A stretch of 15,143 nucleotides of DNA from an uncultured Nitrososphaerota archaeon (GTDB lineage Archaea; Thermoproteota; Nitrososphaeria; Nitrososphaerales; Gagatemarchaeaceae): NCBI GenBank assembly GCA_963718895.1, contig CAVRAG010000011.1:1-15143 (forward strand), read 5' to 3'. How positions within the stretch are numbered: position 1 is the first letter of the stretch; each line of letters starts with the position of its first letter. The notes beneath the pieces are model-generated. The model was given only the letters and a program-made list of their open reading frames with translations, did not search any database and had not been told where the DNA came from. This document shows, piece by piece, positions 1,216 to 13,874 of the stretch. Both the position numbers and the translations under genes were made by a program.

Positions 1216-1766
1216 TGAATCAGGACTTCGCCTTCATAGACAGGTTTTCTGTGGCGATACTGAGGCTTCTAAGGGTCTGATCCAATGAAGCGCTTCTACC
1301 AGAGGGAGGTGGCAAGGACTGCTGGGTGAGCGTGGGTAAGACCAACCAGGTACTGAAGGCGCTGGAAGAGAATGAACTTGTCACGAAGGAGCACGTGGGG
1401 AAGGTGGACCTCTACAAGTACAACCTGGCCGACGCTGCGGCACGTTCCCTGAAGGTGTTCTTCAACACGTCGGAGTTGAGGGTGCTGACCAAGAGCCTCG
1501 GAACACTCGATGGAACATCAAAGGTGGTTCTGTTCGGAAGCTGCGCCGAGGGAACTGACACGAAGGATAGCGATATCGACATCATCATCTTGACCCAGGA
1601 CAAGCGAGAAGCTACGGCAGCGGTTCAGCGGGCCGGACGTTCATCAAGCAGAAAGCTTTCACCGATTATTCTTGATCCACTGGAATTCAGCAGGTTGAAG
1701 AAGGACGACCTACCACTCTATGAGCAGGTCTCAAAGGGGATGACGCTTTGGCAGCGAGAGGAGTGA
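1212..1766 (+). CDS. wHTH-fused minimal nucleotidyltransferase (MntA-type antitoxin); two compensating indels in the 5' part
   Basis: GS-X10-DXD motif (FGSCAEGTDTKDSDID). The N-terminal HTH 'ILRLL(G)SDPMKRFYQREVARTAGVSVGKTNQVLKALEE' is restored by removing 1 nt near 1271-1275 and adding one G at 1324-1326. The ORF track shows only 1326..1766. Confidence 0.85.
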
Positions 1767-2227
1767 GCGCGGCACTCAAACGCCTTCTGGAACAGAGGAG
1801 ACTCCTGAAGGCAAGCTTGGGCGAGGAAGCAATCACGAAGGAGCTGGATGGGGCGACATACGACCTCCAACGTTCCAAGACCTCCCTCTCGGAGTCGGAT
1901 TACAAGTGGGCCACCATCAAGGGTTACTACTCCATGTTTCATGCGGCGAGGGCTCTTCTCTATTCGGCCGGCTACCGCGAACGAAGCCACGCCGCGTTGC
2001 TCACTGCGCTGAGGGAGTTGTACGTGAAACCGGGAACGCTGGCAGAGGACTTCTTGGATGATTTTGAGAACGCCATGAGCCTGAGAGAAGAAGCAGACTA
2101 TGCGATGAACTTCTCCGAAGACGGGTCAAGGAGGGTCGTGGGTGACGCTGGACGCTTCTTGCAAGCTGCGAAAGAATCGCTGAAATCGATGAGACAAACC
2201 AGAGACTCAGAAAGCCGAGCGGGATGA
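1763..2227 (+). CDS. HEPN domain protein (UPF0332/COG1895-like, R-X4-Y type)
   Basis: Motifs YYSMFHAARALL, SHAALL and REEADY. GTG 1763 overlaps the MNT stop (GTGA), suggesting translational coupling. Confidence 0.88.
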   Translation: MSAALKRLLEQRRLLKASLGEEAITKELDGATYDLQRSKTSLSESDYKWATIKGYYSMFHAARALLYSAGYRERSHAALLTALRELYVKPGTLAEDFLDDFENAMSLREEADYAMNFSEDGSRRVVGDAGRFLQAAKESLKSMRQTRDSESRAG

Positions 2228-2251: not shown

Positions 2252-2347
2252 GGTCTGAGCTTCTCTGAGGATGGAGCTAAGGAGACGGTACAGGGTGCCC
2301 GCACATTCCTGACGAGAGCGAAGGTCGTTCTAAAGCTGGAAACCTGA
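2252..2347 (+). pseudogene. Orphan C-terminal helix of a second, paralogous HEPN gene
   Basis: GLSFSEDGAKETVQGARTFLTRAKVVLKLET* aligns without gaps to the HEPN end AMNFSEDGSRRVVGDAGRFLQAAKESLKSM. It is in the same frame, after the TGA at 2225-2227. Confidence 0.8.
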
Positions 2348-2402
2348 TCTCTTGCCGCTCTCGCCCTAAGGATATTACGGATCCTGTTAGCTATCGTTCC
2401 CT

Positions 2403-2600
2403 ATGAGCGTGAACGGGACATATCAGTTTGGGATTACCAACTCCTGGGGAGTGAGTAGCGTATCCCAGACCTACGACAACGTCGCCCACATTCCTCCGCC
2501 GCCGGACGAGGAGTACTTCCTGATGACCTTCTTTGGCTTGCTCGTGGTCGGGGTCTACTTCTTGGCGAAGATTTCGAGAAGGAAAAGACAATTGCATTAG
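2403..2600 (+). pseudogene. Probable 3' fragment of a C-terminally anchored surface protein
   Basis: Beta-strand-like segment (NGTYQFGITNSWG), Pro-rich linker, one TM helix and a basic tail. One extra T near 2397 extends it upstream (PKDITDPVSYRFP), but no signal peptide or 5' part is present. Confidence 0.45.
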
Positions 2601-2727
2601 GAATCAGAAAGGCTCACGGCTGTGTCTGACCAGAGGAATAGGTGGGGATGGCGCAAGTTGCAAATCCTTAGACCGAATGGATCGTTCGGATGGTTCTGAT
2701 AACCCTTCGGACTATTGAAATATCCGG

Positions 2728-3255
2728 ATGACTGACGGGCCATGCCCGCAATTGAAACTATGGATGATTGGGCTTGCCTGTGCGATTGGGCTAGCCCTTG
2801 GATTATATTTCCTAGGCGCCGGGATCTTCGACCTCTGTCATAGCATCGGGCCCATCCGGCCCAGCGCGTGTGCCTCTGGTCCTCTTTCGACGGAACAGGA
2901 TTCCTCCTTCGTAGTGATAGGAATCTCGCTCGCACTGGTCTCCCTGATAGTCCTGGTCTCAGTTGCCATAAGAGTGAGTCTCAGGGCGAGCGTCTGGGTG
3001 GTCTGGTTCGTCAGGTCAGTCTTCGTAATCGGAACATCCTTGGGAATCCTGATTTTCTTCGGCTCCTTCTCTGGTATTTGCGACCCATTTGGACCCTTTG
3101 GAACGACCGGAACGCTCTGCACCTCCTTCGACCCGTATGAAGCAATCGGGCCTTTACTCGCACTAATCTCTCTGGTCGGTTTAATCTATTCATTGAAGAC
3201 AACGAACCAACGAAGAGACGGAACAAAACTAAACAGTTCGGCCAAAAGCATTTAG
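2728..3255 (+). CDS. 4-TM membrane protein with two Cys-loop hairpins (C-x10-C, C-x12-C)
   Basis: Four hydrophobic segments. Loops CHSIGPIRPSAC and CDPFGPFGTTGTLC each lie between a TM pair. Confidence 0.75.
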   Translation: MTDGPCPQLKLWMIGLACAIGLALGLYFLGAGIFDLCHSIGPIRPSACASGPLSTEQDSSFVVIGISLALVSLIVLVSVAIRVSLRASVWVVWFVRSVFVIGTSLGILIFFGSFSGICDPFGPFGTTGTLCTSFDPYEAIGPLLALISLVGLIYSLKTTNQRRDGTKLNSSAKSI

Positions 3256-3291
3256 GATGAGAAGATTCGCATTGTTACGAAGGTCGAAACG

Positions 3292-3723
3292 ATGAACTTC
3301 TCGCGGCTCAGCCTGATACTCGTCGCGTTCGGAGCAGTCTCGTTCGTCCTGTGGGAGGAAGACGTCGCCATTCCGCTGAAACTGGCTCTGGTCTATTTCG
3401 GAGGGCTGGGAGTCTTTGGAGGCGGCCTCTTTGCCGTCATTGGCGCTCTTCAGAGGCGGAGGACTCCGAACGCGCGCTCCAACCTCCTCGTGGATGCTGG
3501 ATGGACGACGGTGTCGTTCGGACTGATAGCATCCATCGGGTCTTACCTCGTGCTGACCCAGACCAGGTGCTTTAGCCCGTTCCTGAGGGCCGGGAATTGC
3601 AATCTGGCCGGCTATTACGCGCCCATGTACGCAGGGCTCGCTTTAGCGGCGGCCGGTCTTGGCGTCGTCGTCTTCGGGAGACTTTTCAAGACGGTAGCCT
3701 CTTTGCGAAAACTCAGGCAGTGA
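3292..3723 (+). CDS. 4-TM membrane protein with a C-x9-C loop
   Basis: Four hydrophobic segments with a basic loop after TM2. CFSPFLRAGNC lies between TM3 and TM4. Confidence 0.75.
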   Translation: MNFSRLSLILVAFGAVSFVLWEEDVAIPLKLALVYFGGLGVFGGGLFAVIGALQRRRTPNARSNLLVDAGWTTVSFGLIASIGSYLVLTQTRCFSPFLRAGNCNLAGYYAPMYAGLALAAAGLGVVVFGRLFKTVASLRKLRQ

Positions 3724-3816
3724 CTTCCTTCGGTTTGGTCGTGAACAGCCTCTTCTCCTCGTCGCTGAGGAAGTGTAGAAAGGGCTCCCGTCTCCCTGAG
3801 TCCTCAACTCCAGGCC
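3713..3816 (-). pseudogene. Orphan 3' tail of a VirB4-like ATPase gene, copy 1
   Basis: Reads GLELRTQGDGSPFY(N/H)FLSDEEKRLFTTKPKEVTA* with one base added near 3774. Hand alignment gives about 54/77 identical nt with 6414-6489. Confidence 0.65.
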
Positions 3817-3859
3817 CCCGCTATTCGTCCCTCTTGCCACCAGTTGGGTCGCAATTCTC

Positions 3860-4432
3860 TCAGGAAGGCGTGTCCTGCATCTTCTTCCTGCTCATTTCCT
3901 CCAGCGCATTCAGGAGAATGTTGCCTACCGGCGTGAGCTCGTAGAGCTTCACGTTACCATAGGCGGTCTTCTCCTGCACCAGCCCGTACTTCAATAGGAC
4001 TTGGACGTGGTAGTCTATCGTGGTCCAGTCGAGCTCAAGGTCTCTGGCGAGCTGGAACCTGTCCTTCGGCGTGAGCAGCGATTTCAGGATCGTCGTCCTC
4101 GTCTCTCCACCCTTCATCTGCAGCAGGAGCTTGAACAAGCCCTGATCCAGACCTCGTCGCGACCAATTCGACTTTGCCCTCCCCCTCCATATCCACGCGC
4201 CGACTACGGCAGCCCAGCTTATCGGTACCAGCGCAATCGAGTGCGCCTGGAGTACCACCAGAGGAAGGCTGACGGGTGACGGCGAAATCGGAGTAGCTCC
4301 CGTTGAATTCGCGTTGTTCGGCGGGCCCGCCACCGGATGACCAAGCAATTGCAAGCCCAACAGCAAGGTGTTCAAGATTGCGAAGGCGAGAACCAGGTAG
4401 AGGACGATGCTGTACTTGCTCTGTCCCATCAT
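3860..4432 (-). CDS. Membrane-anchored winged-helix (ArsR-like) transcription regulator
   Basis: Two N-terminal TM helices around a Pro/Ser/Asn-rich loop, then GGETRTTILKSL...QLARDLELDWTTIDYHVQVLLKYGLV...YGNVKLYELT. Start is ATG 4432 or 4429, or GTG 4474. Confidence 0.8.
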   Translation of the reverse strand: MMGQSKYSIVLYLVLAFAILNTLLLGLQLLGHPVAGPPNNANSTGATPISPSPVSLPLVVLQAHSIALVPISWAAVVGAWIWRGRAKSNWSRRGLDQGLFKLLLQMKGGETRTTILKSLLTPKDRFQLARDLELDWTTIDYHVQVLLKYGLVQEKTAYGNVKLYELTPVGNILLNALEEMSRKKMQDTPS

Positions 4433-4477
4433 CGGTTGGTCTCGTCTCTTTTCCCGCCTAGTGATAAGAATCACGCC

Positions 4478-4741
4478 TCACTTGGGACGATTGAATCTTC
4501 CAAGAAATATCAGGCCTGAGCCGATGACGGCCAAAGAAACACCCAACCATAGAGGAAAGGAGTTCGATCCGAGATAGAATGGCAGTTGTAGATAGTATTC
4601 ACAGCCCTGAACGGGTACAGCCCCGGTAAGGTGCTCACAATCGTATACCAGCATATAAGTCTGCAAACCAAAAACGACGACAGAGACCGCGCCTACAGCT
4701 AACAATATGATACCTGAGAATTTGAGTCGGCTCTTCGTCAT
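4478..4741 (-). CDS. 2-TM hairpin protein with a C-x11-C loop (87 aa)
   Basis: TM - CEHLTGAVPVQGC - TM with basic termini. Its ATG is 1 nt after the upstream stop codon. Confidence 0.75.
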   Translation of the reverse strand: MTKSRLKFSGIILLAVGAVSVVVFGLQTYMLVYDCEHLTGAVPVQGCEYYLQLPFYLGSNSFPLWLGVSLAVIGSGLIFLGRFNRPK

Positions 4742-4742
4742 T

Positions 4743-5087
4743 TCAAGGCCGCTCTGCGAGGTTTTGCAAAGCCTTTGGCTGGTTGCTCGTCTTCGTAGGT
4801 TCGGATGGTCGTCGCACTATGTCAAGAAAGAATACAAGTGCGAAAGCAATTCCCGCCCAGAATAGGTAGTCCAGTGAGATGAGGCTCACATCATAAGAAA
4901 ATCCGCATCCGTTGAACGGGTTAGGAGTCCTACAGGGAGAGATTGGTGCGCTGTAGGTCAAAGGAAATCCATTGGAGGAGCCTTCGGGGGTCAGAGTTGC
5001 AAACGCGCTAAGGCCGAGAAACACCAAGCCCACAAGGCAGGCGGTGATAATCAACCGGGGCCTAACATCCATGTCTATCCCAACCAA
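4743..5087 (-). CDS. 2-TM hairpin protein with a GFPL motif and C-x8-C loop
   Basis: TM - GFPLTY...CRTPNPFNGC...DYLFW - TM. Start is TTG 5087 or ATG 5072. Confidence 0.75.
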   Translation of the reverse strand: MVGIDMDVRPRLIITACLVGLVFLGLSAFATLTPEGSSNGFPLTYSAPISPCRTPNPFNGCGFSYDVSLISLDYLFWAGIAFALVFFLDIVRRPSEPTKTSNQPKALQNLAERP

Positions 5088-5110
5088 CTTGACAAGAATC
5101 CGCGTTCATG

Positions 5111-5118
5111 TTATATAA
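5111..5118. promoter_or_regulatory. Palindromic TATA box TTATATAA between divergent genes
   Basis: Self-complementary octamer, 24 nt from TTG 5087 (-) and upstream of GTG 5155 / ATG 5170 (+). Confidence 0.55.
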
Positions 5119-5154
5119 TTTGTCCAGAGTCGTCAGGAATAACCCCATTAGACG

Positions 5155-5742
5155 GTGGAACCGCCCCAAATGCAGCTGACGAAATTGAAGAAGAACGCAG
5201 GAGTTGCTACGGCCGTTGTCGCGTTGATTGCCTTGATCGTAATTGGCGGGGCTACGGCAGCCTTTGTGTTGACAATGCAACCAAGTCCAGCCTCATCCGC
5301 GACCTCTAGCTCGACAACCATTCCTTCCCTCGATAGCACTCAGTCAACTGGAAGCGTCACTTCGAGTACATCGTGCAATCAACCACCTTATCTCGTCAAG
5401 CTTGCCTCCCAGGTCGAGCAAACACAGAACTTCACCCAGCAATCGCGCGGCCTGAGCTACGTGCTGGCATATGGCGACAATCAGAGCGCCGAAACGGGAA
5501 CAGTGAACGGCAAACCAACCTACTCTCTACCCGAGACAAGTTTGGCGTTCTACTCCTACGGCACAACTTCAACTGCGGTTTGCTCCTACAATGTTGGGAC
5601 TGAGGGCGTTGTCGGAGCCCTCTGGGTCCAAGTCCCAATCAACGCCGACGGTTCCTATGACCTCGCTAACATGTCCATCTACTTCACGCCCGGAGTCTTC
5701 TCCAACAGCACGTCAATCACTCAATCGACCAGCAGCGTCTAG
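5155..5742 (+). CDS. N-terminally anchored Ser/Thr-rich surface (glyco)protein
   Basis: Basic KLKKNAG followed by a long hydrophobic helix, a Ser/Thr linker, and a domain with two Cys and N-x-S/T sequons (NFT, NQS, NMS, NST). Start may be ATG 5170. Confidence 0.8.
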   Translation: MEPPQMQLTKLKKNAGVATAVVALIALIVIGGATAAFVLTMQPSPASSATSSSTTIPSLDSTQSTGSVTSSTSCNQPPYLVKLASQVEQTQNFTQQSRGLSYVLAYGDNQSAETGTVNGKPTYSLPETSLAFYSYGTTSTAVCSYNVGTEGVVGALWVQVPINADGSYDLANMSIYFTPGVFSNSTSITQSTSSV

Positions 5743-5804
5743 TCGATAACTTCAGATTTCGAAAGAAATCGCATGAATACGTGGATTACGTAATTTTGTG
5801 GATC

Positions 5805-5861
5805 TTTCTTCGACTTACTGAACAATCTTCTCTCTTCGCGTGAAAGCCTTACTAACCAGGG
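5805..5861 (-). pseudogene. More diverged orphan VirB4-like tail, copy 3
   Basis: PWLVRLSREERRLFSKSKK versus PFY.FLSDEEKRLFTTKPK. Same strand and same relative position (convergent to a + strand cargo gene) as the other copies. Confidence 0.45.
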
Positions 5862-5884
5862 CCTCGGCAAATGCAAAGAGGAAC

Positions 5885-6294
5885 TTGAAGCCACATTCGT
5901 TGATTGCTCTCTTGATTGCTCTGGGGTATCCGTCCTCGCTGGTTTCGAGTTCATCTTTTTCGGAAATGAGATTCTGGGTCCCTTCCTGGTTCTCACCAGC
6001 GCGATTGTCACGCTGGCCGCCATTAGGCCGCATTGGAAAACGCCGTCGACCTCACTCGGGCTTGCCGTTTTTCTGGGCGGGACATTTGCATCTCTCTATC
6101 TAATCTTCGGTAGGTGCGCTCCTGAGGGCGGACTTCTTCCAAGCGGGGTGTGCTACATTTACACTTCGAACAATCTGTGGTTTGCCACCGACTCCGTCGT
6201 CGCACCCCTGTTGGGCATTGTCGTTCTTGTCGCAGGTCAGATCAAGATGAGTCGGAGACAATCCTACTCGCAAAAATTCAGTTCGCTAACTTGA
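5885..6294 (+). CDS. Hidden 4-TM membrane protein (~136 aa) with a C-x11-C loop; one frameshift
   Basis: TTG 5885 gives MKPHSLIALLIALG; adding one G at 5923-5926 continues VSVLAGFEFIFFGNEILGPFLVLTSAIVTLAAIRPHWKTPSTSLGLAVFLGGTFASLYLIFGRCAPEGGLLPSGVCYIYTSNNLWFATDSVVAPLLGIVVLVAGQIKMSRRQSYSQKFSSLT*. Not in the ORF track. Confidence 0.72.
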
Positions 6295-6418
6295 TGAAAC
6301 GGCGAATCCCAGAGTTAGCGAGGCCAGTTCCTTCAATATCCTTTGCATAATCCTTATTGGGGCGAAGGCGTCATGGAAACCTCTTTCTGAACAGGCCCCT
6401 AAGAAATCCTATCAAAAC

Positions 6419-6574
6419 TCAAGCGGTGACTCCCTTCGGCTTCGTGGTGAAAGTTTCCTCTCCGCGTCACTCGAAAAATTATAGAATGGAAGCGTCCTCT
6501 TGGGTCACTAGAATTCCCTGTCCTATCTTCGCATTTACGACGAACTTCCACTCTCCATCGCCGAGTTCGTTCAC
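6419..6574 (-). pseudogene. Orphan 3' tail of a VirB4-like ATPase gene, copy 2 (longest), abutting the integrase stop
   Basis: NELGDGEWKFVVNAKIGQGILVTQEDA/PFYNFSSDAERKL/FTTKPKGVTA* with indels near 6490 and 6450-6452. It fits the L..GE..F...A..G(E/Q)G.L...S..E..L.TT.P pattern I recall for VirB4-like ATPase C-termini. Confidence 0.7.
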
Positions 6575-7881
6575 GTTGGAAGTTTAACCACAACCTCCGA
6601 GTCCGGTAGCTGCGCGACATACTCCCATCCTTGGCTGACGTGCGACTTCAACTCGCTGGCCGGGATTATCTTCTGCCTGTTCCCGTTGTTGGTCATGACC
6701 CCGAGCAACCTCCGACGCAACAGGTCCTGGAAGTCTTCGTTGGTCATCTTGTTTAGGTCCAGCTTCTCGAGTTCCTCTTCCTTGGCGCCTGCCGCAAGAA
6801 GCAGCTGCTCCCTGAGCACGTTCTTCAGGTTCTCTTGGGATATTCCCTTCTGCTTCTCAGTGGACAGAAGAGGCTCGCACTTCCTGTAAGCGTCTCGCAT
6901 CTTCTCTATAGCGTCCTGGGTTATCCCCTTGTTCACGGTGTACGTCGCTTCGATATCTCCCACGTGGCCCATCCAGAATTCCCTCCAATCTCTTATGATC
7001 AGGCCGTCTCCCTCGGCCATCATCATCCTAACGTCGAAGTATCTGCGCAGGACGTAGGGCCGCCAATCGAACCCCGCCTTCCTGATCGGTTTCCTGATGA
7101 TGTCTCCAATGTTTATCGAGGTGATATGCTTGCGCCCCACATCTTCAGGCCTGACGTACTTTCCCTTCCTCTCGTGGAACGTGATCACCGGCGATTCTGG
7201 TAGGAGGTCTTCTCCCTTTCGCAATCTCCACTCTAGATATTCTTGTAAATATTGACAGCCCTCCTGCGCCAAAAATGTGAAGTACTGATGACCGGCCTTG
7301 CTGAGGGTCTTCCTTGCGATCACCATGGTCGGCATCTTCGTTACGATTACCTTGCCGTTCTCGACCTTGACCTCGGGGAGGTCTTTCATCTTCAGGCCGT
7401 CGTCACCCGTGTAGTTACCGAGGACCTCGATACGGCACCCGCCAAAAGCGACCAGCGAGCAGGCGACCTTCGCCCTCAACTCCGCGGCGTTGAGTATCTT
7501 CTTCAGCTCTTCTTGCGTCGGCGGCCTTTCGTTCTCCACCTTCGTGGGCTGTGACCGCGGTATCTTGATTGCCCTCGTGATCTGGGTATCGTTCCAGGCC
7601 AGCCAGCTCTTCAACGGCTTCACGATGTTGGAGATGTAATTCCCGCTCCTCCCCTCCTTCTCAAGCGTTCCAATCACATCCAAGAGGAAGTCCGTGGCTT
7701 GCTTCTGGCTCATCTTAGCGATCTTTTGCGGTGTCGTCTCGAACCTCGCGCAGACGAATCCTATCCTGCGGAACCATTCCTGGGCGGTGACGAGGCTCCC
7801 TCTCGTCACGTTGTCGTACCATCTCCGGAAGTCCTTGTCATCGAGCATCTGCTTGTACTTCGAGCGTCCTAGGTCCTTCAT
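6571..7881 (-). CDS. Tyrosine recombinase / site-specific integrase (436 aa, intact)
   Basis: Catalytic set: R in GGCRIEV, YVLRRYF (Y at the first position of HxxR), WMGH and Tyr in EATY. N-terminal core-binding-like region and a ~90-aa C-terminal extension. Adjacent to a tRNA. Confidence 0.93.
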   Translation of the reverse strand: MKDLGRSKYKQMLDDKDFRRWYDNVTRGSLVTAQEWFRRIGFVCARFETTPQKIAKMSQKQATDFLLDVIGTLEKEGRSGNYISNIVKPLKSWLAWNDTQITRAIKIPRSQPTKVENERPPTQEELKKILNAAELRAKVACSLVAFGGCRIEVLGNYTGDDGLKMKDLPEVKVENGKVIVTKMPTMVIARKTLSKAGHQYFTFLAQEGCQYLQEYLEWRLRKGEDLLPESPVITFHERKGKYVRPEDVGRKHITSINIGDIIRKPIRKAGFDWRPYVLRRYFDVRMMMAEGDGLIIRDWREFWMGHVGDIEATYTVNKGITQDAIEKMRDAYRKCEPLLSTEKQKGISQENLKNVLREQLLLAAGAKEEELEKLDLNKMTNEDFQDLLRRRLLGVMTNNGNRQKIIPASELKSHVSQGWEYVAQLPDSEVVVKLPT

Positions 7882-7890
7882 CGCGCCCTA

Positions 7891-7919
7891 GTTACGCTAG
7901 ATTCGCGTATAAACGTAAC
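7891..7919 (-). promoter_or_regulatory. Integrase promoter: TATA box inside an inverted repeat
   Basis: TTTATA on the minus strand at 7913-7908, 27-32 nt before ATG 7881, bracketed by GTTACG (7891-7896) and CGTAAC (7914-7919). Confidence 0.6.
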
Positions 7920-7937
7920 GGTTGTGAACTAAGTTGA

Positions 7938-8034
7938 TGGTGGGGCCGGTGAGATTTGAACTCACGGTCGCCTGCACTTTGGCCCGCTACCGGGCCCCCA
8001 AGCAGGAATCTTGACCATACTAGACTACGGCCCT
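7938..8034 (-). tRNA. tRNA-Pro(GGG) with encoded CCA and a 19-nt intron
   Basis: Hand-folded cloverleaf: acceptor GGGCCG/CGGCCC, D stem GTCT/AGAT, anticodon stem CCTGC/GCAGG, loop TT-GGG-G|T (anticodon at 7999-7997), T arm GTGAG-TTCAAAT-CTCAC, ACCA end. Confidence 0.95.
7977..7995 (-). other. Canonical 37/38 tRNA intron forming a bulge-helix-bulge
   Basis: Intron GCCCGGTAGCGGGCCAAAG. TTGG (32-35) pairs with CCAA, bulges are GG|G and AG|T, and the outer helix is CCCG/CGGG with a GTAG loop. Confidence 0.92.
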
Positions 8035-8246
8035 AGTATGCGGGGCCTTTACGACACGGGTTCTTGTTCTTTTCTGATGAGATTGACACCATAGATCGCC
8101 GCCGGCTTGGGCCTGGGGTGCGGTGGAGGATTGAGTAGAGGCATCGTCGACAGAGATGGTATCGGAACGCCCAGTGCACCAAGGAACGAATCCGTCGTTT
8201 ACAGGCACAGGTTTTAGTAACCCTGAGCGCATCCACTCCGATCACC

Positions 8247-8597
8247 TTGCCTGATGACTACGTTGGCATCGGAAAAGGCGAGAGGGTGCTCGTCAGCCAA
8301 CCCAAAGTTGTTCCTGACAGGCTCCTCGAGAATCTCTCGACAGCTTTCAAGTCCAACGGAGATGTCGAAGAGGCCTTCTTTGGCCAGATTGACCTCGCCT
8401 CAAGACCTGACGGCTCCCACCTACTAGTTCAGGTGAAGTTTCGAGAGAGTTCCAAAGGAGGTCTGGCTTCTCTCGATTCAAGCATCAGAAGGGCTATCGA
8501 AGGTTCGCCCGGATTAGAATCGCCCGTGGATTTCGCGGTGGTGACTGACGGGCCATACCCTGGGACTAGGAGTTTCTACAAGCGCGAAGGCTTCTGA
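8247..8597 (+). CDS. Stand-alone SseB C-terminal-domain-like protein
   Basis: Pattern 'GERVLVSQPKVVPDRLLENLSTAF...VEEAFFGQI...HLLVQV' recalls SseB_C; 116 aa. Recognised by eye only. Confidence 0.6.
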   Translation: MPDDYVGIGKGERVLVSQPKVVPDRLLENLSTAFKSNGDVEEAFFGQIDLASRPDGSHLLVQVKFRESSKGGLASLDSSIRRAIEGSPGLESPVDFAVVTDGPYPGTRSFYKREGF

Positions 8598-8650
8598 CCA
8601 GAGACAGCGTCGCTCACACTCCTTAAATCGAGCGGACCGAATTCCGGCCC

Positions 8651-9646
8651 GTGGTCTATTTCATTCTGTCCGACGACCTCACGGGAGCAGCCGGGGTCGC
8701 GTCGATGGTGGACCGCTCAGCCGCCGTCGCTGTGAATCTGGACAGGTTTGACCGGAAGCTCGCCGGGGAGTTCGCCTGCATCGTCCTGAACCTGGAGATT
8801 CGGGAGAAGACCGGCGCGGAGGCAGCCCGGAGGCTTTCGCGGGCTATCGACGCCGTCGGCGAGAACCCGGTGGCGGTCAGGATGGACAGCGCGCTGCGGG
8901 GTCGCTTGCAGATGCTCGTGGGGACGATGCTCGAGAGGGGGAACGTACTGGTCACAGACACCATTCCCGAGTATGAGAGGCGCACGGTGTCAGGCAAGAC
9001 GTTCATCGGCCCTCAGCAGGGAGACATCGGCTCTCTGCTCTCTCCGCTGCGAGGCAAGTGGAAGGACCGGAGCATCACCATCGCCGATTCCGAGACCTAT
9101 GAAGACCTCGACGCCCTGGCCCAACGTTGCATCGCGGATGGTCTGATTCCCGTCGATCCGGGTCCGCTCGTGGCGAGGGTGGCCCGGGGCAGGCTCGGGC
9201 TTGGCGCGCCTGCCCTTCGCAGGGCTGGCAGGGAGGTCTCGAAAGTGGCCTTCGTGGTGGGCACCAGGGATCCCAGGAGCCTTGAGCAGGTCCGCCACAT
9301 GCGCAGCCTCGGGTTCCCGGTGCAGAAGCCCTGCGTCAAGAGTGCCGATGGGGTGGACGTCTTCTCGTTCTCCATTGGGAAGGAAGGACCTCTCGTGACG
9401 CGGGCTTTCCTGAATCATCTGACACACTACGACGCGCTGGTCCTCAGCGGCGGCGCCACGGCCAACTTCGTCCTCGAGCGATCCGGATTCAGCTATCTGG
9501 TGAGCGAGGGAGAGGTGCAACCGCTCGTCTCATCGAGCAGGGTGAAGGGGGGCCTGTTCGACGGGAAGACGGCGGTTCTGAAAGGAGGGTTTATCGGCGA
9601 CGAAGACGCGTACAAGACGATCTTGGACTGGTTGAGAAGAGAATGA
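8651..9646 (+). CDS. Four-carbon acid sugar kinase family protein (DUF1537; DtnK/OtnK-like)
   Basis: DDLTGA, DSALRG, IADSET, SGGATA and LKGGFIG motifs. ATGA overlap with pdxA. TTAAAT at 8623-8628 upstream. Confidence 0.85.
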   Translation: MVYFILSDDLTGAAGVASMVDRSAAVAVNLDRFDRKLAGEFACIVLNLEIREKTGAEAARRLSRAIDAVGENPVAVRMDSALRGRLQMLVGTMLERGNVLVTDTIPEYERRTVSGKTFIGPQQGDIGSLLSPLRGKWKDRSITIADSETYEDLDALAQRCIADGLIPVDPGPLVARVARGRLGLGAPALRRAGREVSKVAFVVGTRDPRSLEQVRHMRSLGFPVQKPCVKSADGVDVFSFSIGKEGPLVTRAFLNHLTHYDALVLSGGATANFVLERSGFSYLVSEGEVQPLVSSSRVKGGLFDGKTAVLKGGFIGDEDAYKTILDWLRRE

Positions 9647-10590
9647 TCGGGGTAACACTCGGCGACCCGGCGGGCATTGGCCCCGAGATAGTCGCAAAGT
9701 CCCTACCGAGCCTCAAGAGAGAGCAGCTGGTCCTGATAGGCAATCACGAGAACTTCCTGCGCGTCCTGTCCGACCTCCGCCTCGACGAGAAGAAGATCCG
9801 CGGCTACTCGTTCGTCGACATCCCAGGGGAGGGGGTGACCTACGGCCGCGTCCAGAAGGCGGCGGGGCAGATCGCCGTCCGGAGCATCGAGAAGGCGGTA
9901 GAGATGGCGATCAAAGGCGAGGTCGAGTCGATATCGACCGCCCCCATAAACAAGGAGGCGATAATGATGGCAGGATCGAAGTACGTAGACCACACGGCTA
10001 TGCTCTCCGGCCTCACTGGCTCGAGGGAGAACTTCACGGTCTTCGAGACGGGCGCGCTGCGCATCTTCTTCATGACCAAGCACGTCTCCCTCTCGAAGGC
10101 TCTCGTACAGATCACGAGGAAGCGCGTGCGCTCCTCGATCTTCGAAGCGAACGAGTCCCTCGCCATGCTCGGCGTGAAACGAAGGAGGATCGCCGTGGCT
10201 GCGCTGAACCCGCACGGGGGCGACGGAGGGCTCTTCGGGAGGGAGGAGATCGAGACGATAGCGCCGGCCATCAGGGACGCACAGAAGGAGCTGGACGTCT
10301 CCGGACCCTACCCAGCAGACTCCGTCTTCCACAGAGCCTCCGAGGGGGCGTTCGACATCGTCGTCGCGCTCTATCACGACCAGGGCCACATAGCGGCCAA
10401 GATGCTCGACTTTCACCGGACGGTGAGCCTTAACCTCGGCCTGCCGTTCCTGAGGACCTCGGCCGACCATGGGACGGCGTTCGACATCGCGGGGAAGGGT
10501 CTGGCCAACCCGGTGAGCATGGTCGAGGCCGTCAAGAAGGCCGCCAAGTATGGAAGGAGCTACCGGGCGAGGCGCGCCGAGCTCAGATGA
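9643..10590 (+). CDS. pdxA: 4-hydroxythreonine-4-phosphate / D-threonate-4-phosphate dehydrogenase (PdxA2-type context)
   Basis: GDPAGIGPE, TAPINKE, DHT, LNPHGGDGGLFG, YHDQGH and RTSADHGTAFDIAGKG. Confidence 0.95.
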   Translation: MIGVTLGDPAGIGPEIVAKSLPSLKREQLVLIGNHENFLRVLSDLRLDEKKIRGYSFVDIPGEGVTYGRVQKAAGQIAVRSIEKAVEMAIKGEVESISTAPINKEAIMMAGSKYVDHTAMLSGLTGSRENFTVFETGALRIFFMTKHVSLSKALVQITRKRVRSSIFEANESLAMLGVKRRRIAVAALNPHGGDGGLFGREEIETIAPAIRDAQKELDVSGPYPADSVFHRASEGAFDIVVALYHDQGHIAAKMLDFHRTVSLNLGLPFLRTSADHGTAFDIAGKGLANPVSMVEAVKKAAKYGRSYRARRAELR

Positions 10591-11359
10591 CTATCCCGAC
10601 GGTCTTCAGCAGGCCTGCGTAGTTTCCGTCTGACCTGTCCCTCTTGTACTCCTTCAGCGCCTCGAGGACCGCTTCCTGCCTCCTGATTCCCACGAGCCGC
10701 TTGACGAACGGGGCGCACCTCCCGCCGATGAGCAGGTACTGAGACGCCGTCGTGACGTTCTTCGGCGCTCTCCTCTGGCTCGCGGACTCGAAGTCGATGA
10801 TGTAGGGGATGTCGCCCGCCATGATCACGTGCTTTCTCAGGTCGCTGAGCTGGCCGTGGTCCAGGTCGATGAGGTCAAGCTTCCTGCACTGGTTCAGCAG
10901 CAGGTGCAGTATCTCGCGGGCCCGACCTCTCTTCCCCACCCCGCTTATCGATCTTAGGTGTTCCTCAAGGTCCTCGCCTTCGACCAGCTGCATGACCATG
11001 AAGTCCCTCGTCGCTGCGAAGGCCTGCGCGCCGACTCCGACCCTGTTCGCGATCTCGGTGAGCCTGAACTCCTCGAGCATGCTCTCCCTGTTGGCGTCGG
11101 TGCGCCTTATCTTCAGGGCATGGACCCTCCCATCGATTATCCCTCTGACGACCACGCTCACGGTGCCGATGCCGACGAGACCGAGCCTGCCTATCTTCGT
11201 CCTTCCCTCGAAGACGACCTCCTCGACTCCCAGCACTCCGAGCTGATCTATCCTGGACCGCGCCGCCTTCAGGTCCAGGCTGGGATAGGTGAGGACGTTG
11301 AGGTAAGGAGTCCTCGCGAACTCGTCCAGCCTAATCCGTTCCGATGCTGTCTGCGACAA
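10583..11359 (-). CDS. Archaeal RIO-like Ser/Thr kinase (COG2112-like)
   Basis: GIGTVSVV, ALKIRR, E...ANRVGVG, DHGQLS and IIDFESAS. Lies directly downstream of cca. Confidence 0.85.
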   Translation of the reverse strand: MSQTASERIRLDEFARTPYLNVLTYPSLDLKAARSRIDQLGVLGVEEVVFEGRTKIGRLGLVGIGTVSVVVRGIIDGRVHALKIRRTDANRESMLEEFRLTEIANRVGVGAQAFAATRDFMVMQLVEGEDLEEHLRSISGVGKRGRAREILHLLLNQCRKLDLIDLDHGQLSDLRKHVIMAGDIPYIIDFESASQRRAPKNVTTASQYLLIGGRCAPFVKRLVGIRRQEAVLEALKEYKRDRSDGNYAGLLKTVGIVI

Positions 11360-12666
11360 ATTCCTTTACTCCCTCGTCCAGCCATCCCTCCTCCGCCATC
11401 TCGCGGAGGATAGCCCTACCGGTCACGACTCTACCGCTCTTCCGGATGGCGGCGGCCACCTCGTGCGAGGCCCCCACCCTGTCAATCTCCGACGAGCGGA
11501 GCCCGGCGAGCAGGCTCTCCAGCTCGGTCTGCTTCCGTTCCTGGAGCAGGTGCACCTTCCCGTCCTCTCCGACCCAGACGAGCTCCGACCTAGCCCTGTT
11601 CTTCGAGATGAACCTCTTGACCTCCGCCGGCATCTCGACGCCCGGCCCGACACGCTCCTCCAGATCTGAGAGGCGTTCAGTCCCCGGGAGCAGTATTATG
11701 GCGCTCCTGTCAGAGTTGTTTGAGGCGGCTGAGGCCCTGATCGATCCTGAAGCCACGTTCCTCGGCGTACCTCACCAGCTGCTTCGTGCTCCTCTTGAGC
11801 TCTCCCCAGAGCGTGTCCTCGCTGAGGGGCCTGTGGTCGAAGCGGACCACATAGAGCCTCCCGACGAGGGCCCTCCTGACGCTTCTCCTGATGCCCGTGA
11901 AGTATGCGAGGTCCGGCCCCTCGAGGAAGGCTCTTGAGGCGAGGGTCATCTTCGCCACCGTCTCCCTGGAGATCGCCCTGGCGAGCTCTCGATCCATGTC
12001 GATTGGGTCCTTCAGGCTCAGGAGCGTCTCTCCGGCTGGTTTCAGGTCAGCGAAGAAGCGGAGGACCCCCTCGAAGCCGCCGTGATTGTGGACGAGCACC
12101 TCGGCCGCGTACCCGCTGAAGCCCTCGTTCTCAATCTCGGCTCCGTAGACCCCGACCGTCTTCATGAAGAGCTTCAGGAGCCTGACCTGCGTCCTCCTCT
12201 CCTCGTCCAGGTTTCTCTTCACGAACTCGACGTGGTACGGAGACCTGTCCGCGGCGCTCCTCCACTCTCCCGGCCTGACGTCGTAGCAGGGCACGATGTT
12301 CACCTTGACTCCGTCGACGGTCGCCTCCGTGTACGGGTGCTGGGCGTACTTCTTCCCGTGTCGGTACCCGCGGGCCGCTTCCCTGCCTACCTTGAGTCCG
12401 ACCGCCTCGAATCTCTCGCCGTCCGAATCTTCGGCGAATCTCAGGAAGACGTCGATGTCGGCTTCACCGCCCACGCGAGGAGACAGCCACGTCCCCTTCG
12501 CGAACGAACCACCCAGGATCACATCCTTGATCTCCCCGAAGGGAAGCGAAGCGGCCTCCACCTTCTTGAGGACCTTCTTGGCCACGCGATTGAGCCTGAC
12601 CTCTTCCTGAGGGCTCGGGATGACCCTCCTCCCCGCTTTCAAGAGGACGCTCTGGAGCTTTGTCAC
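11331..12666 (-). CDS. cca: Archaeal class I CCA-adding enzyme; one frameshift near 11742
   Basis: GGSFAKGTWL...DIDVF, YAQHPY, SAADRSPYH and GFSGY. Track ORFs 11710..12666 and 11331..11756 join as ...EERGFRI/IRASAASNN... Confidence 0.93.
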
Positions 12667-13225
12667 CCTAGAGCGTACTCCTTCACATCGGTGTATGTGG
12701 GACCGGCAGACGAGAGCACGCTCGATTTTAGCTTCAGGCTGGTTATCCTCGTCCCCCCGAGGTCACGACGGGAGTTCGACTGGAGGAGCGAGGTCAGAGC
12801 CCCGCTGTTGAGAGGGCTCCTCACTCTGGCCAGCGTAATGTGAGGGTGAAAGTCGTGGTCCTCCGGTTTCCCGACCCCTTCGAGGGCGGCGATGAAGGCC
12901 GAGGCGACACTGTTGATTGCCTGTTCGTTTTCGCGGGCGACACCGGCCCAGACGACCCTCGGCCGCCTCGGGTCAGGGAATGCACCGATCCCTCTCACGA
13001 GAACGTCGAAGCTGGACAACCTCAGTCCGCTGAGCCTTCTGTCTACCTCCTTAACTGTGTCCTCCGAGACCTCTCCCAGGAACTTCACCGTGAAGTGGAG
13101 GTTGTCCCTTCCGACGACGTTCAGATCTGCCGCGTGTCCTCTTGAGCTCCTCCTCGACGATCAGCAGCTTCTCGACGACTTCCTGCGAGACCTCAAATGC
13201 GAGAAATGCGCGCGTTCGTCTTCAC
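12663..13225 (-). CDS. thpR: RNA 2',3'-cyclic phosphodiesterase (2H family, 2'-5' RNA ligase); indels near 13130 and 13215
   Basis: The N-terminus RAFLAFEVSQEVVEKL is in an adjacent frame. Two HxT motifs (HFTVKF, HITLAR), plus GAFP...PRVVWAGV and GPTY. Confidence 0.9.
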
Positions 13226-13250
13226 CGCTGCTGCTTGCTCTCCCGGCGCG

Positions 13251-13284
13251 TTATTAAGCAGAATCCATTGAAAGACGCTTATTA
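13251..13284. promoter_or_regulatory. Divergent TATA-like boxes for the thpR-cca-kinase and P-loop kinase-DUF54 units
   Basis: TTAATAA (-) at 13257-13251, 26-32 nt from GTG 13225, and TTATTA (+) at 13279-13284 upstream of ATG 13317, in a GC-rich background. Confidence 0.5.
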
Positions 13285-13316
13285 CCACCCCTCCGACGGC
13301 GCTGAGGCATACCAAG

Positions 13317-13874
13317 ATGTTGATCATAGCCATCACAGGGATGCCAGGGGCTGGCAAGTCCACGGTGGCGCAGGCGCTGGGCGGGATCGGGCTGAGGAGG
13401 ATCGCGATGGGGGACATGATTCGGGAAGAGACCGGCCGGAGGGGTCTCCCGCTCGACGACAAGAACATGGGGATGGTGATGAAGGAGCTGAGGGGCACCT
13501 ACGGCGCCGGAGCGGTCGCCGAGCTCTGCCTCCGCAGCATCCAGTCGAAGGAAGGCGAGGCGGCGGTCGTGGTAGACGGGATAAGGTCGGTCGCGGAGAT
13601 AGAGATCTTCAGGAACGCAGGAGAGGTGAAACTGCTGGCCGTCCTCGCCTCCCCGAAGAGGAGGTTCGAGCTTCTCACCGCCAGAGGGCGGACCGACGCC
13701 CCTCCGGACCTCGAGAGCTTCAGAGCCAGGGACGAGAGGGAGCTGTCCATCGGGATAGGGAACGCGATATCTCTGGCCGACGAAGCGATCGTGAACGAGC
13801 ACATCACTCCCGACGAGCTGACCGACGTGGCGCTCAGTATCGCGGCCGGATGGATGAAGCCGCTTGGAAGATAG
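13317..13874 (+). CDS. UPF0200 / dephospho-CoA-kinase-like P-loop kinase
   Basis: GMPGAGKS Walker A, MGDMIRE, VVDGIRS, RGRTD and RDERELSIGIG. Confidence 0.88.
   Translation: MLIIAITGMPGAGKSTVAQALGGIGLRRIAMGDMIREETGRRGLPLDDKNMGMVMKELRGTYGAGAVAELCLRSIQSKEGEAAVVVDGIRSVAEIEIFRNAGEVKLLAVLASPKRRFELLTARGRTDAPPDLESFRARDERELSIGIGNAISLADEAIVNEHITPDELTDVALSIAAGWMKPLGR

What the first reader, a model, noticed from the sequence alone, without database searches (positions are those of the whole stretch)
2728..7881. Candidate new system: integrase-anchored stack of VirB4-like tails with variable Cys-loop membrane cargo
Seen: downstream of the integrase the same layout recurs three times, a minus-strand orphan gene tail (6419-6574, 5805-5861, 3713-3816) facing a + strand membrane or surface gene (ending 6294, 5742, 3723). 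Five cargo proteins share one Cys-loop hairpin architecture. Established: VirB4-like ATPases are core to conjugative transfer modules, and conjugative elements often carry small, poorly conserved membrane exclusion proteins near transfer genes. Inference: successive related elements integrated or recombined at this tRNA-Pro island, lost their transfer machinery, and left the ATPase 3' end plus adjacent variable genes. The result would be an accumulating library, possibly of exclusion, immunity or receptor-decoy specificities.
Basis: partly seen in the sequence, partly recalled or inferred. Interest (0 to 1): 0.85.

Follow-up and report, generated by a model that had tools for sequence, protein, structure and literature searches.

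The report
Eroded conjugative-element cargo region, archaeal island
This stretch is the worn-down cargo region of a conjugative element in a soil archaeon's tRNA-Pro island, where short leftover ends of a VirB4 transfer ATPase gene mark old recombination joints; it does not look like a new dedicated system.

Summary
The core observation holds. Tails A (6419-6574) and C (3713-3820) are true 3' stumps of a VirB4-family ATPase gene. One intact 649-aa copy lies on another contig beside a VirD4-like gene. Tail B is not confirmed.

A matching stump of a second gene, a 666-aa surface protein, lies at 2334-2600. In intact elements of this Nitrososphaerales genus, virB4 and that gene converge on a variable cargo hot spot. 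One intact element has a homologue of window protein 3292-3723 directly facing intact virB4.

Orphan 3' stumps of these two genes are common across the genus. A VirD4-like control gave no short tails. Stumps also occur inside the hot spots of intact elements.

A strain-variant contig and another species share tRNA-Pro, integrase and tail A. Both diverge from the window exactly at the virB4 stop codon.

Hot-spot cargo elsewhere is mixed: MFS and ABC-2 transporters, regulators, a dehydrogenase, AbiJ. An exclusion or decoy library is therefore unsupported. The tails show no sign of being recombination sites.

Best reading: recombination scars plus decay of an integrative conjugative element hot spot. 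This is an ordinary kind of feature with a moderately interesting genus-wide pattern.

The parts
7938..8034 (-). tRNA-Pro(GGG), 97 nt (longer than the 71-position tRNA model, so probably intron-bearing). Its 3' end is the attachment site of the island.
   Evidence: ARAGORN. Rfam RF00005, 49.5 bits. In G021 (L045) a ~17-20 nt copy of the tRNA 3' end precedes the orthologous integrase, behind a full tRNA-Pro 6.2 kb away.
6571..7881 (-). Intact 436-aa tyrosine integrase.
   Evidence: ORF. phrog_1 integrase E 2.7e-8. NCBIfam XerA N-terminal part 2.1e-8. No Pfam hit. Orthologues of 89-94% identity in G021, G001 and G013; 93% on C9, where it is split into 371 and 58 aa.
6419..6574 (-). Tail A: eroded 3' stump of virB4, about 50 codons, with two in-frame stops and frame changes. 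It abuts the integrase stop codon.
   Evidence: E 3.5e-8. The same integrase-stump joint occurs on C9 and in G021. Homology to the window ends at 6419/6418, the virB4 stop.
6148..6294 (+). 48-aa ORF with one hydrophobic segment; unverified as a gene.
   Evidence: ORF; hydropathy. No copy in 23 genus genomes.
5739..6033 (-). 'Tail B' region: possible, very diverged VirB4-like stump (LSREERRLFSKSKKD). Not confirmed.
   Evidence: Profile E 1.8. Targeted tblastn E 0.005-0.017 in a 720-nt database, 12 queries. Unique to this contig.
5155..5742 (+). 195-aa protein with an N-terminal hydrophobic anchor and a Ser/Thr-rich stretch; probable surface protein.
   Evidence: no Pfam hit. Partial 72% DNA match at G007:C1:1672535, not near a VirB4 match. 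Its 50-nt upstream region is shared with a 625-aa surface-protein gene on C5.
4743..5087 (-). 114-aa two-TM protein with a Cys pair (C52, C61) in the loop.
   Evidence: no Pfam hit.
4478..4741 (-). 87-aa two-TM protein with a Cys pair (C35, C47) in the loop.
   Evidence: no Pfam hit. 78% DNA match in G020:C22. G020 gave no VirB4 match.
3860..4474 (-). 204-aa membrane-anchored protein with a probable winged-helix domain; a multi-copy family in the genus.
   Evidence: Weak Pfam hits below cut-offs: HVO_A0261_N 4.2e-4, HTH_5 7e-3. 77% copy on C5 in the same position. Many partial copies in the genus. Homologues lie in or beside the hot spots of G002:C1 and G001:C57.
3713..3820 (-). Tail C: 3' stump of virB4, 25-36 codons, from a different allele than tail A (77% nt identity over 77 nt). 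Its stop overlaps the 3' end of 3292-3723 by 11 nt.
   Evidence: E 2.2e-7.
3292..3723 (+). 143-aa four-helix membrane protein with conserved C93/C103 in the loop between helices 3 and 4.
   Evidence: Low-confidence model with four helices (pLDDT 53.8). dN/dS 0.37-0.87 over 15 pairs. 9 copies in 6 of 23 genus genomes, 5 of them abutting a VirB4 3' end.
2728..3255 (+). 175-aa four-TM protein with two Cys-pair loops (C37/C48, C118/C131).
   Evidence: Cys pairs kept in 3 of 3 aligned copies; dN/dS 0.30-0.37. 5 matches in 3 of 23 genomes.
2334..2600 (+). 3' stump (about 84 codons, two stops; ORF 2403-2600) of the 666-aa surface-protein gene that converges on virB4 in intact elements. It is the other border of the hot spot.
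   Evidence: 82% identity over 62 aa to G000:C8:1181763-1183763. tblastn residues 579-660 and 580-663.
1326..2227 (+). Nucleotidyltransferase-HEPN gene pair.
   Evidence: Pfam Polbeta/NTP_transf_2 about 1e-9 and HEPN 1.4e-13. L045:19920-20000 is 91% identical to window 1719-1800.

Best explanation
Window 2334-7937 is the decayed cargo hot spot of an integrative conjugative element (ICE) family. It sits in a tRNA-Pro island of an uncultured Nitrososphaerales archaeon.

In intact family members, virB4 and a 666-aa surface-protein gene converge on a variable region that holds accessory genes. Recombination between related elements brings new cargo into that region. Each event can leave behind the short 3' end of the displaced virB4 or 666-aa gene copy. 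These stumps come from different alleles.

Later deletions removed the transfer genes. What remains is the integrase fused to stump A, a second stump C, the 666-aa gene stump, and the cargo genes between them.

The stumps are passive scars. They survive because they lie next to retained cargo genes and are slowly nibbled from their 5' side.

Shown: the identity of the stumps, the hot-spot architecture, its variability, and the genus-wide excess of stumps. Inferred: the order of events, and that selection on cargo keeps the stumps.

The small Cys-pair membrane proteins are accessory cargo of unknown function.
For: (1) Parent gene.
- It is VirB4 family.
- It lies with a VirD4/TraG-like gene on C8.

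(2) Hot-spot architecture.
- Five intact elements (C8, G001:C73, G001:C57, G017:C7, G002:C1) have virB4 and the 666-aa gene convergent.
- Between them lies 1.0-6.0 kb of unrelated content.

(3) Tail excess, with control.
- The VirB4 search of 41 genomes gave 62 rows.
- I group these into about 34 separate orphan fragments confined to the last 165 codons, against about 3 orphan 5'/internal fragments.
- The 666-aa gene gave about 16 short 3' tails among 35 rows.
- The VirD4-like control gave 28 rows and no isolated tail under about 115 codons.

(4) Stumps inside intact hot spots.
- G001:C73 has a VirB4 tail back-to-back with a 666 tail. G001:C57 has an orphan tail 2.3 kb after intact virB4.
- The G001:C73 orphan tail differs from the resident virB4 3' end at 7 of 78 nt, so it comes from another allele.

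(5) Erosion.
- The module 666-stump/P1/P2/VirB4-stump recurs in C5, G007 and G013.
- VirB4 stump lengths differ (about 24, 60 and 26 codons). In G013 the stump is fused to VirB4 residue ~93.

(6) Boundary.
- C9 and G021 share tRNA-integrase-tail A and diverge from the window at the virB4 stop codon.
- SXT/R391 hot-spot borders also fall right after stop codons (PMC2791158, passages read).

(7) No embedded DNA site.
- Synonymous identity in the last 26 codons of 6 intact virB4 genes is 0.53, against 0.61 overall.
- Tails fold no better than shuffles (z 0.17 to -1.25).
- Tails resemble the tRNA att no better than shuffles do.
Against: - The short-stump distribution (mostly 24-65 codons) is tighter than random deletion alone predicts. 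Several breakpoints cluster at codons 621-627, though this is also near the detection limit.
- One ~180-220 bp back-to-back junction of the two stumps recurs in three places with unrelated flanks. This hints that stumps take part in further exchange and are not merely inert.
- No intact element with this integrase type next to a complete transfer module was found, so the ancestral layout is inferred.
- attR of the island is not on the contig.
- Tail B is unresolved.
- All genomes are metagenome-assembled. G000 is 80.5% complete with 5.4% contamination.
Confidence: 0.68

Rival explanations
1. First reader's model. Whole related elements integrated one after another at tRNA-Pro. Each lost its transfer genes and left a VirB4 3' end plus adjacent genes. 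The result is a growing library of exclusion, immunity or decoy proteins.
For: - Tandem use of this tRNA-Pro site is real. G021 has a full tRNA-Pro, a 6.2-kb element, a repeat of the tRNA 3' end, and then the orthologous integrase and tail.
- Four cargo proteins share a TM-CysCys-TM design.
- The P2 family is linked to VirB4 3' ends in 5 of 9 copies.
Against: - No tRNA 3' repeat and no integrase fragment lies between the tails or anywhere left of the integrase in the window.
- Stumps occur inside intact elements' hot spots.
- C5 carries the same two-stump layout away from any tRNA.
- Hot-spot cargo is functionally mixed.
- The Cys-loop proteins show no similarity to each other or to any family.
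Confidence: 0.12
2. Site-specific cassette system. The VirB4 tail is a recombination site, analogous to attC or to a gene-3'-end attP. The adjacent integrase uses it to capture circular cargo cassettes.
For: - The integrase abuts tail A in three loci.
- Arrays of [666 stump-cargo-VirB4 stump] units exist in G001:C12 and G001:C73.
- Breakpoints cluster at codons 621-627.
- Thaumarchaeal elements are known to integrate into 3'-distal parts of protein genes (PMC6563490, section 8 read).
Against: - The three integrase-tail joints are one inherited junction.
- Most of the ~34 orphan tails have no integrase match adjacent to them (coordinates compared; only the G000:C11, G000:C9 and G021:C3 tails do).
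- Tail lengths vary from 18 to about 160 codons.
- There is no excess synonymous conservation, no significant hairpin and no likeness to the tRNA att.
- Tails A and C share no exact run longer than 8 nt.
Confidence: 0.07
3. Artefact. The stack is an assembly chimera at repeated tails, or the tail matches are chance.
For: - The window is a whole 15-kb contig of a MAG with 5.4% contamination.
- Contigs C9 and C6 duplicate parts of it.
Against: - Tails A and C are only 77% identical over 77 nt, too divergent to mislead an assembler.
- The two-stump layout is syntenic on C5 at 77-81% identity.
- The P1-P2 module with both stumps is in a single-contig 2.25-Mb genome, G007.
- Profile E-values are 3.5e-8 and 2.2e-7.
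Confidence: 0.03

Closest known systems
Variable-DNA hot spots of SXT/R391 integrative conjugative elements (Wozniak et al. 2009, PMC2791158; search listing and passages read)
   Same: - A conserved transfer backbone is punctuated by intergenic hot spots with unrelated cargo.
- Borders are precise and can fall immediately after a stop codon (traA in hot spot 2).
- Mosaicism is ascribed to recombination among family members.
- Traces of earlier insertions lie beside borders.
   Different: - The host here is an archaeon and the backbone is unrelated.
- The hot spot lies between two convergent genes.
- Short 3' stumps of both flanking genes persist as orphan copies inside hot spots and in decayed islands. 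The passages I read do not describe this for SXT/R391.
Thaumarchaeal integrative-conjugative and cryptic integrated elements (Krupovic et al. 2019, PMC6563490; passages and section 8 read)
   Same: - The paper's elements come from Thaumarchaeota, the phylum to which tool-shown labels assign this genus.
- VirB4/TrbE plus VirD4/TraG signature pair, tyrosine integrases, tRNA genes as main targets, and arrays from re-use of one site.
   Different: - That survey covered 21 genomes; no 3' stump or hot-spot pattern appears in the passages I saw.
- This genus (about 59% G+C, peat and soil MAGs) was not named there, as far as I read. Supplements were closed.
Decayed ICE derivatives and accretion at one att site (cis-mobilizable elements and IMEs; review PMC5704250, search listing only; content otherwise recalled)
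   Same: An element that keeps an integrase or att sites but has lost its conjugation module, lying in tandem with others at a tRNA gene.
   Different: No second att site was found here, so mobility of the remnant is unknown. The internal stump structure is not part of that concept.
Orphan 3' modules downstream of polymorphic toxin genes (Rhs, CdiA) and displaced tRNA 3' fragments in tandem islands (recalled, no call)
   Same: Repeated short 3' pieces of one gene in direct orientation, each tied to a different downstream module, as scars of serial recombination.
   Different: Here the repeated piece is the invariant end of an ATPase gene. It encodes no variable domain, and nothing suggests switching of the expressed protein.

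Membership tests
VirB4/TrbE conjugation ATPase (parent gene of the tails) | Sequence homology to the VirB4 ATPase over the P-loop domain | tested here: met
   NCBIfam VirB4_plasma 5.8e-32, CD1110 7.2e-24, TraC 1.8e-20 and VirB4_CagE 5.4e-12, all below the equivalog cut-offs. PDB 4ag5 VirB4 C-terminal domain 9.2e-13. Pfam gave only a weak P-loop_TraG hit, 1.3e-3.
VirB4/TrbE conjugation ATPase (parent gene of the tails) | Partnered with a VirD4/TraG-type coupling ATPase in one gene cluster | tested here: met
   An 808-aa protein 5.3 kb upstream on C8: Pfam TraG-D_C 3.7e-7, T4SS-DNA_transf 1.3e-6; NCBIfam CD1115 2e-10. Same synteny in G001 and G017.
VirB4/TrbE conjugation ATPase (parent gene of the tails) | Window tails align to the C-terminus of that protein | tested here: met
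   Tails A and C are met. Tail B is inconclusive.
Integrative conjugative element (the window region itself) | Integrase next to an att site in a tRNA gene | tested here: met
   att core inferred from the G021 repeat. attR was not found on the contig.
Integrative conjugative element (the window region itself) | Complete conjugation module (VirB4, VirD4 and partners) | tested here: not met
   Only stumps of virB4 and of the 666-aa gene are present. No VirD4 match lies on C11. The window holds a remnant, not an ICE.
Integrative conjugative element (the window region itself) | Excision and transfer | not testable with these tools
   No culture. Metagenome contigs gave only small shares.
Integron-like cassette array | Recombination sites with conserved, structured inverted repeats at each cassette end | tested here: not met
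   Single-strand folds of the tails are no better than shuffles: z 0.17, 0.91, 0.53 and 0.41 in the window; -1.09 and -1.25 for the intact gene end; -1.77 for the G001:C73 junction. No synonymous constraint.
Integron-like cassette array | IntI-type integrase divergent from the array | tested here: inconclusive
   The only family-level hit is the N-terminal part of the XerA/integron-integrase model, 34 bits against a cut-off of 220. The gene is co-directional with the tails, not divergent.
Entry-exclusion or surface-exclusion proteins of conjugative elements | Homology to a described exclusion family, or constant linkage to the transfer genes | tested here: not met
   No Pfam hit for the Cys-loop proteins. 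No informative Atlas neighbour for P2, best score 0.86 with unnamed clusters. Four of five intact elements lack P1/P2 homologues in the hot spot.

The most novel reading that the evidence does not exclude
The orphan 3' stumps are not only scars. They may work as portable homology arms. Each cargo module bounded by a 666-gene stump and a virB4 stump could then be swapped or stacked by homologous recombination between conjugative elements and their chromosomal remnants.

This would be a cassette-like array without a dedicated recombination site. Decayed islands such as this one would be a reservoir from which active elements pick up cargo.

The ~180-220 bp back-to-back stump junction, found in three places with unrelated cargo on both sides, would be the module separator.
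Probability: 0.3. Interest if true: 0.6.

Novelty: new member of a known kind. Interest (0 to 1): 0.3.

Why it matters
It shows how conjugative elements of soil Thaumarchaeota gain, shuffle and leave behind accessory genes. These elements have been little studied.

The stumps of the two hot-spot-flanking genes are easy markers. They can be used to find element-derived cargo in MAGs, and to date and trace recombination between elements.

The finding does not reveal a new defence or exclusion system. The small Cys-pair membrane proteins stay uncharacterised and are narrowly distributed.

Tried and rejected
- Tails as copies of the tRNA att site: rejected. No tRNA fragment lies left of the integrase. 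Local alignment of the tails to the tRNA is no better than shuffles (fraction reaching the observed score 0.10 and 0.25).
- Tails as structured or sequence-constrained DNA sites: rejected on present data.
- A 9-bp inverted repeat in the intact gene end (AACTTCCT / AGGAAGTT) is coding-derived and is broken in several copies.
- Common ancestry of the four Cys-loop proteins: no support from all-against-all BLASTP.
- Function of P2: Pfam gave nothing useful and the ESM Atlas gave only unnamed bacterial clusters at 0.86 or less. The AlphaFold2 model from 6 sequences had pLDDT 53.8, so no fold search was run.
- Wider search for P2 relatives: the genome-contig scan returned only the three loci already known.
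- Expression and strain variants: no RNA holder was listed. Three DNA runs (peat or soil metagenome labels) held 0.05-0.12 of the words. Laid contigs were short pieces. The one joint (3685 to 6429) had only 23 letters on its shorter side and 37 foreign letters between the two sides. None of this is used as evidence.
- Supplementary files of the papers were not opened. Table S2 and data file 1 of PMC6563490 might list related elements.
- In one search my ORF-extension routine ran through the stop of the G007 P2 gene. Stop-containing codons were skipped in dN/dS, and the true end was fixed.
- My grouping of rows into separate fragments was done by eye from the tables.

Full report
WHAT THE WINDOW IS

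The window is a whole contig, C11 (15,143 nt), of a 3.13-Mb, 11-contig metagenome-assembled genome. The genome is 80.5% complete with 5.4% contamination.

G+C falls from about 0.63 to about 0.53 left of roughly 8500. A 97-nt tRNA-Pro(GGG) lies at 7938-8034(-).

To its right are ordinary host genes:
- PdxA
- a sugar-kinase-like protein
- the CCA-adding enzyme
- a LigT-type phosphoesterase
- an RNase Z-like MBL protein

To its left is an island that begins with an intact 436-aa tyrosine integrase at 6571-7881(-).

Close relatives of the element's VirB4 carry source labels such as 'Nitrososphaerales archaeon'. One of them, P0038, has a 140,904-nt contig that matches same-genus genome G002:C1. The host is therefore an uncultured Nitrososphaerales (Thaumarchaeota) genus.

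CHECKING THE TAILS

Tail A (6419-6574) and tail C (3713-3820) both end in FTTKPK.VTA*.

A six-frame motif scan of the genome found one long ORF with that ending, at C8:1178833-1180782, 649 aa.

That protein is VirB4 family:
- NCBIfam VirB4_plasma 5.8e-32
- CD1110 7.2e-24
- TraC 1.8e-20
- PDB 4ag5 9.2e-13

It lies in a cluster with a VirD4/TraG-like 808-aa protein.

I built a profile from the last 110 residues of 77 homologues. Among all six-frame pieces of the window it finds tail A (E 3.5e-8) and tail C (E 2.2e-7). Tail A is broken by two stops and frame changes.

Tail B scores at chance (E 1.8). It gets only weak support in a targeted test (E 0.005-0.017, 12 queries, 720-nt database). It has no copy elsewhere. 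I treat it as unresolved.

THE SECOND STUMP AND THE HOT SPOT

The small ORF 2403-2600, extendable to 2334, is the 3' end of a 666-aa protein gene. That gene lies convergent to virB4 on C8. It has no family hit. It has an N-terminal hydrophobic start and a C-terminal hydrophobic anchor.

Five intact elements have the same layout, with virB4 facing the 666-aa gene:

| Element | Gap between the two genes | Content of the gap |
|---|---|---|
| C8 | about 1.0 kb | 273-aa Ser/Thr-rich ORF |
| G001:C73 | 6.0 kb | TetR regulator, zinc dehydrogenase and others |
| G001:C57 | 4.3 kb | MFS transporter, HTH_10 regulator, MBL-fold protein, AbiJ-like protein |
| G017:C7 | 4.65 kb | not examined |
| G002:C1 | 2.3 kb | P2 homologue (69%) whose 3' end meets intact virB4, plus a homologue of window 3860-4474 |

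An intact VirB4 gene is followed by a convergent Cys-loop gene in 1 of the 5 intact elements examined.

STUMPS ARE A GENUS-WIDE PATTERN

In G000 itself there is one intact virB4 and eight orphan 3' fragments. Seven of them, 24-64 codons long, keep the stop codon. The eighth (C4:237045, residues 589-618) does not reach the gene end.

A search of 41 genomes (G000, 22 of the same genus, 18 others) gave 62 rows. I group them as follows:
- 11 intact or near-intact genes
- 1 pseudogene in pieces
- about 34 separate orphan fragments confined to the last 165 codons, most under 65
- 2 tails cut by contig ends
- about 3 orphan 5' or internal fragments

The 666-aa gene shows the same bias, with about 16 short 3' tails among 35 rows.

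The VirD4-like gene does not border the hot spot, so it served as a control. It gave 28 rows spread along the protein and no isolated tail shorter than about 115 codons.

The excess is therefore specific to the two genes that flank the variable region.

HOW THE STUMPS ARISE

Stumps also occur inside intact elements.
- In G001:C73, a VirB4 tail (residues 623-649) lies back-to-back with a 666 tail (632-663) in the middle of the hot spot. It splits the cargo into two modules.
- That orphan tail differs from the resident virB4 end at 7 of 78 nt, so it came from another allele.
- G001:C57 has an orphan tail 2.3 kb after intact virB4.

The same ~180-220 bp back-to-back junction, homologous through the joint, is present in G001:C12 and G007:C1. 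Nothing else is shared on either side.

Recombination between related elements therefore stacks cargo and leaves stumps. Possible routes are tandem copies followed by deletion, single-crossover insertion of a circle, or homology-anchored illegitimate joining. I cannot tell which.

EROSION

Erosion then shortens the stumps. The module 666-stump/P1/P2/VirB4-stump occurs in C11, C5, G007 and G013 with different stump lengths:

| Locus | VirB4 stump (codons) | 666 stump (codons) |
|---|---|---|
| C11 | about 25-36 | about 84 |
| C5 | 24 | 35 |
| G007 | 60 | 20 |
| G013 | 26, fused to VirB4 residue ~93 | 34-37 |

THE INTEGRASE-TAIL A JOINT AND VARIATION BETWEEN STRAINS

Contig C9 of the same bin matches window 6419-13952 at 96.6% identity. 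The host genes are nearly identical. The integrase is 93% identical at protein level and frameshifted. The tail is about 71-77% identical.

Left of the virB4 stop, C9 carries an MFS transporter and then a 666 stump. That is a single module, where the window has a stack.

In G021 the layout runs as follows:
- a full tRNA-Pro
- a 6.2-kb element
- a ~17-20 nt repeat of the tRNA 3' end
- the orthologous integrase (91% identity)
- the tail

Homology to the window stops at 6418. After that come 9.6 kb of different genes. From their sequences these look like membrane proteins, a P-type ATPase and a regulator; no family search was run on them. Then comes the same nucleotidyltransferase-HEPN pair as window 1326-2227.

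The three integrase-stump joints are homologous, so they represent one ancestral deletion.

No tRNA repeat or integrase fragment separates the window's tails. Serial whole-element integration is therefore not the source of this stack.

ARE THE TAILS FUNCTIONAL SITES?

I found no evidence that they are.
- Among six intact virB4 genes, synonymous identity in the last 26 codons (0.53) is not above the gene average (0.61).
- The tails do not fold better than shuffled sequence.
- They do not resemble the tRNA att site.
- Their lengths vary widely.
- Most are not next to an integrase.

Against a purely passive view, breakpoints cluster at codons 621-627, though this is close to the detection limit. 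The shared junction element also has different cargo on both sides. I carry this forward as the novel reading, at probability 0.3.

THE CARGO PROTEINS

Four proteins carry a hairpin in which a Cys pair sits in the loop between hydrophobic helices:
- P1, 2728-3255 (two hairpins)
- P2, 3292-3723
- 4478-4741
- 4743-5087

They share no sequence similarity with each other.

P1 and P2 are real genes. The Cys pairs are invariant in all aligned copies. dN/dS is 0.30-0.37 for P1 over 3 pairs, and 0.37-0.87 for P2 over 15 pairs.

The P2 family has 9 copies in 6 of 23 genus genomes. Five of them abut a VirB4 3' end. The four most divergent copies (40-61% identity) do not. The family was not found outside this group by a pattern scan of 185,579 species genomes.

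P1 has 5 matches in 3 of 23 genomes, 3 of them in the module.

Homologues of 4478-4741 (G020) and of 5155-5742 (G007:1.67 Mb) are not near VirB4 matches.

Nothing points to exclusion or decoy function. The other contents of the same hot spot are ordinary accessory genes.

COMPARISON WITH WHAT IS KNOWN

Thaumarchaeal ICEs with VirB4 and VirD4, tyrosine integrases, tRNA targets and re-use of sites are described in PMC6563490.

Hot spots with precise borders right after stop codons, and mosaicism through recombination, are described for SXT/R391 in PMC2791158.

The window is a decayed member of this known kind. The genus-wide survival of 3' stumps of both hot-spot-flanking genes, and the conserved back-to-back junction, are features I did not see described in the passages I read. 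No dedicated literature search for 'orphan virB4 3' fragments' was made beyond.

VERDICT

- This is an ordinary element remnant with a moderately interesting evolutionary pattern. Interest 0.3.

Noticed in passing
window 6571-6832 (integrase 3' end): The last ~58 codons of the integrase are far better conserved among paralogues (68-75% aa on C7 and C4) than the rest (27-45%). DNA homology to C7 starts exactly at the stop codon. This is either a conserved C-terminal domain or a recombination mosaic.
   Followed up: partly
G000 contigs C9 (4810-12349) and C6 (8119-12125) versus window 6419-13952 and 11134-15143: The same chromosomal locus is assembled two or three times in one bin (96.6% and 99.5% identity). 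This implies co-assembled strains. The C9 integrase is frameshifted into 371 and 58 aa.
   Followed up: partly
window 2729-2747 and 8542-8560: A 19-nt direct repeat (18 of 19 identical) brackets the finding region plus the integrase, the tRNA and the low-G+C gene 8247-8597. By my rough estimate the chance expectation is about 0.01-0.04. Its meaning is unknown.
   Followed up: no
window 1326-2227: A nucleotidyltransferase-HEPN gene pair with overlapping genes, probably toxin-antitoxin-like. It is shared at 91% DNA identity with the G021 island.
   Followed up: partly
P0055, P0086; G001:C52:3923-5854: Some VirB4 homologues are much longer and carry intein or homing-endonuclease Pfam domains (PF14890, PF14528). 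One 47%-identical genus copy sits in a 1444-aa open frame. These may be intein-containing VirB4 genes.
   Followed up: no
L048 (G013:C98) 8036-8256: A virB4 remnant with an internal deletion joins residue ~93 directly to residue ~614-624, next to a P2 homologue.
   Followed up: partly
L010 (G000:C8) 8201-8701 versus L027 7346-8803: An orphan VirB4 tail faces an 84-aa orphan 3' end of the MFS transporter gene that faces intact virB4 in G001:C57. Both convergent genes are reduced to stumps around their shared 3' junction.
   Followed up: partly
L027 (G001:C57) 10636-11598: An AbiJ-like abortive-infection gene (AbiJ_NTD3 1.1e-44, Abi_C 1.3e-15) is carried as cargo in an intact element's hot spot.
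   Followed up: no
G000:C5:11273-11464, G000:C9:4813-4953: Two different orphan tails carry TAG at the same codon, the position of Q622 in the intact gene.
   Followed up: no
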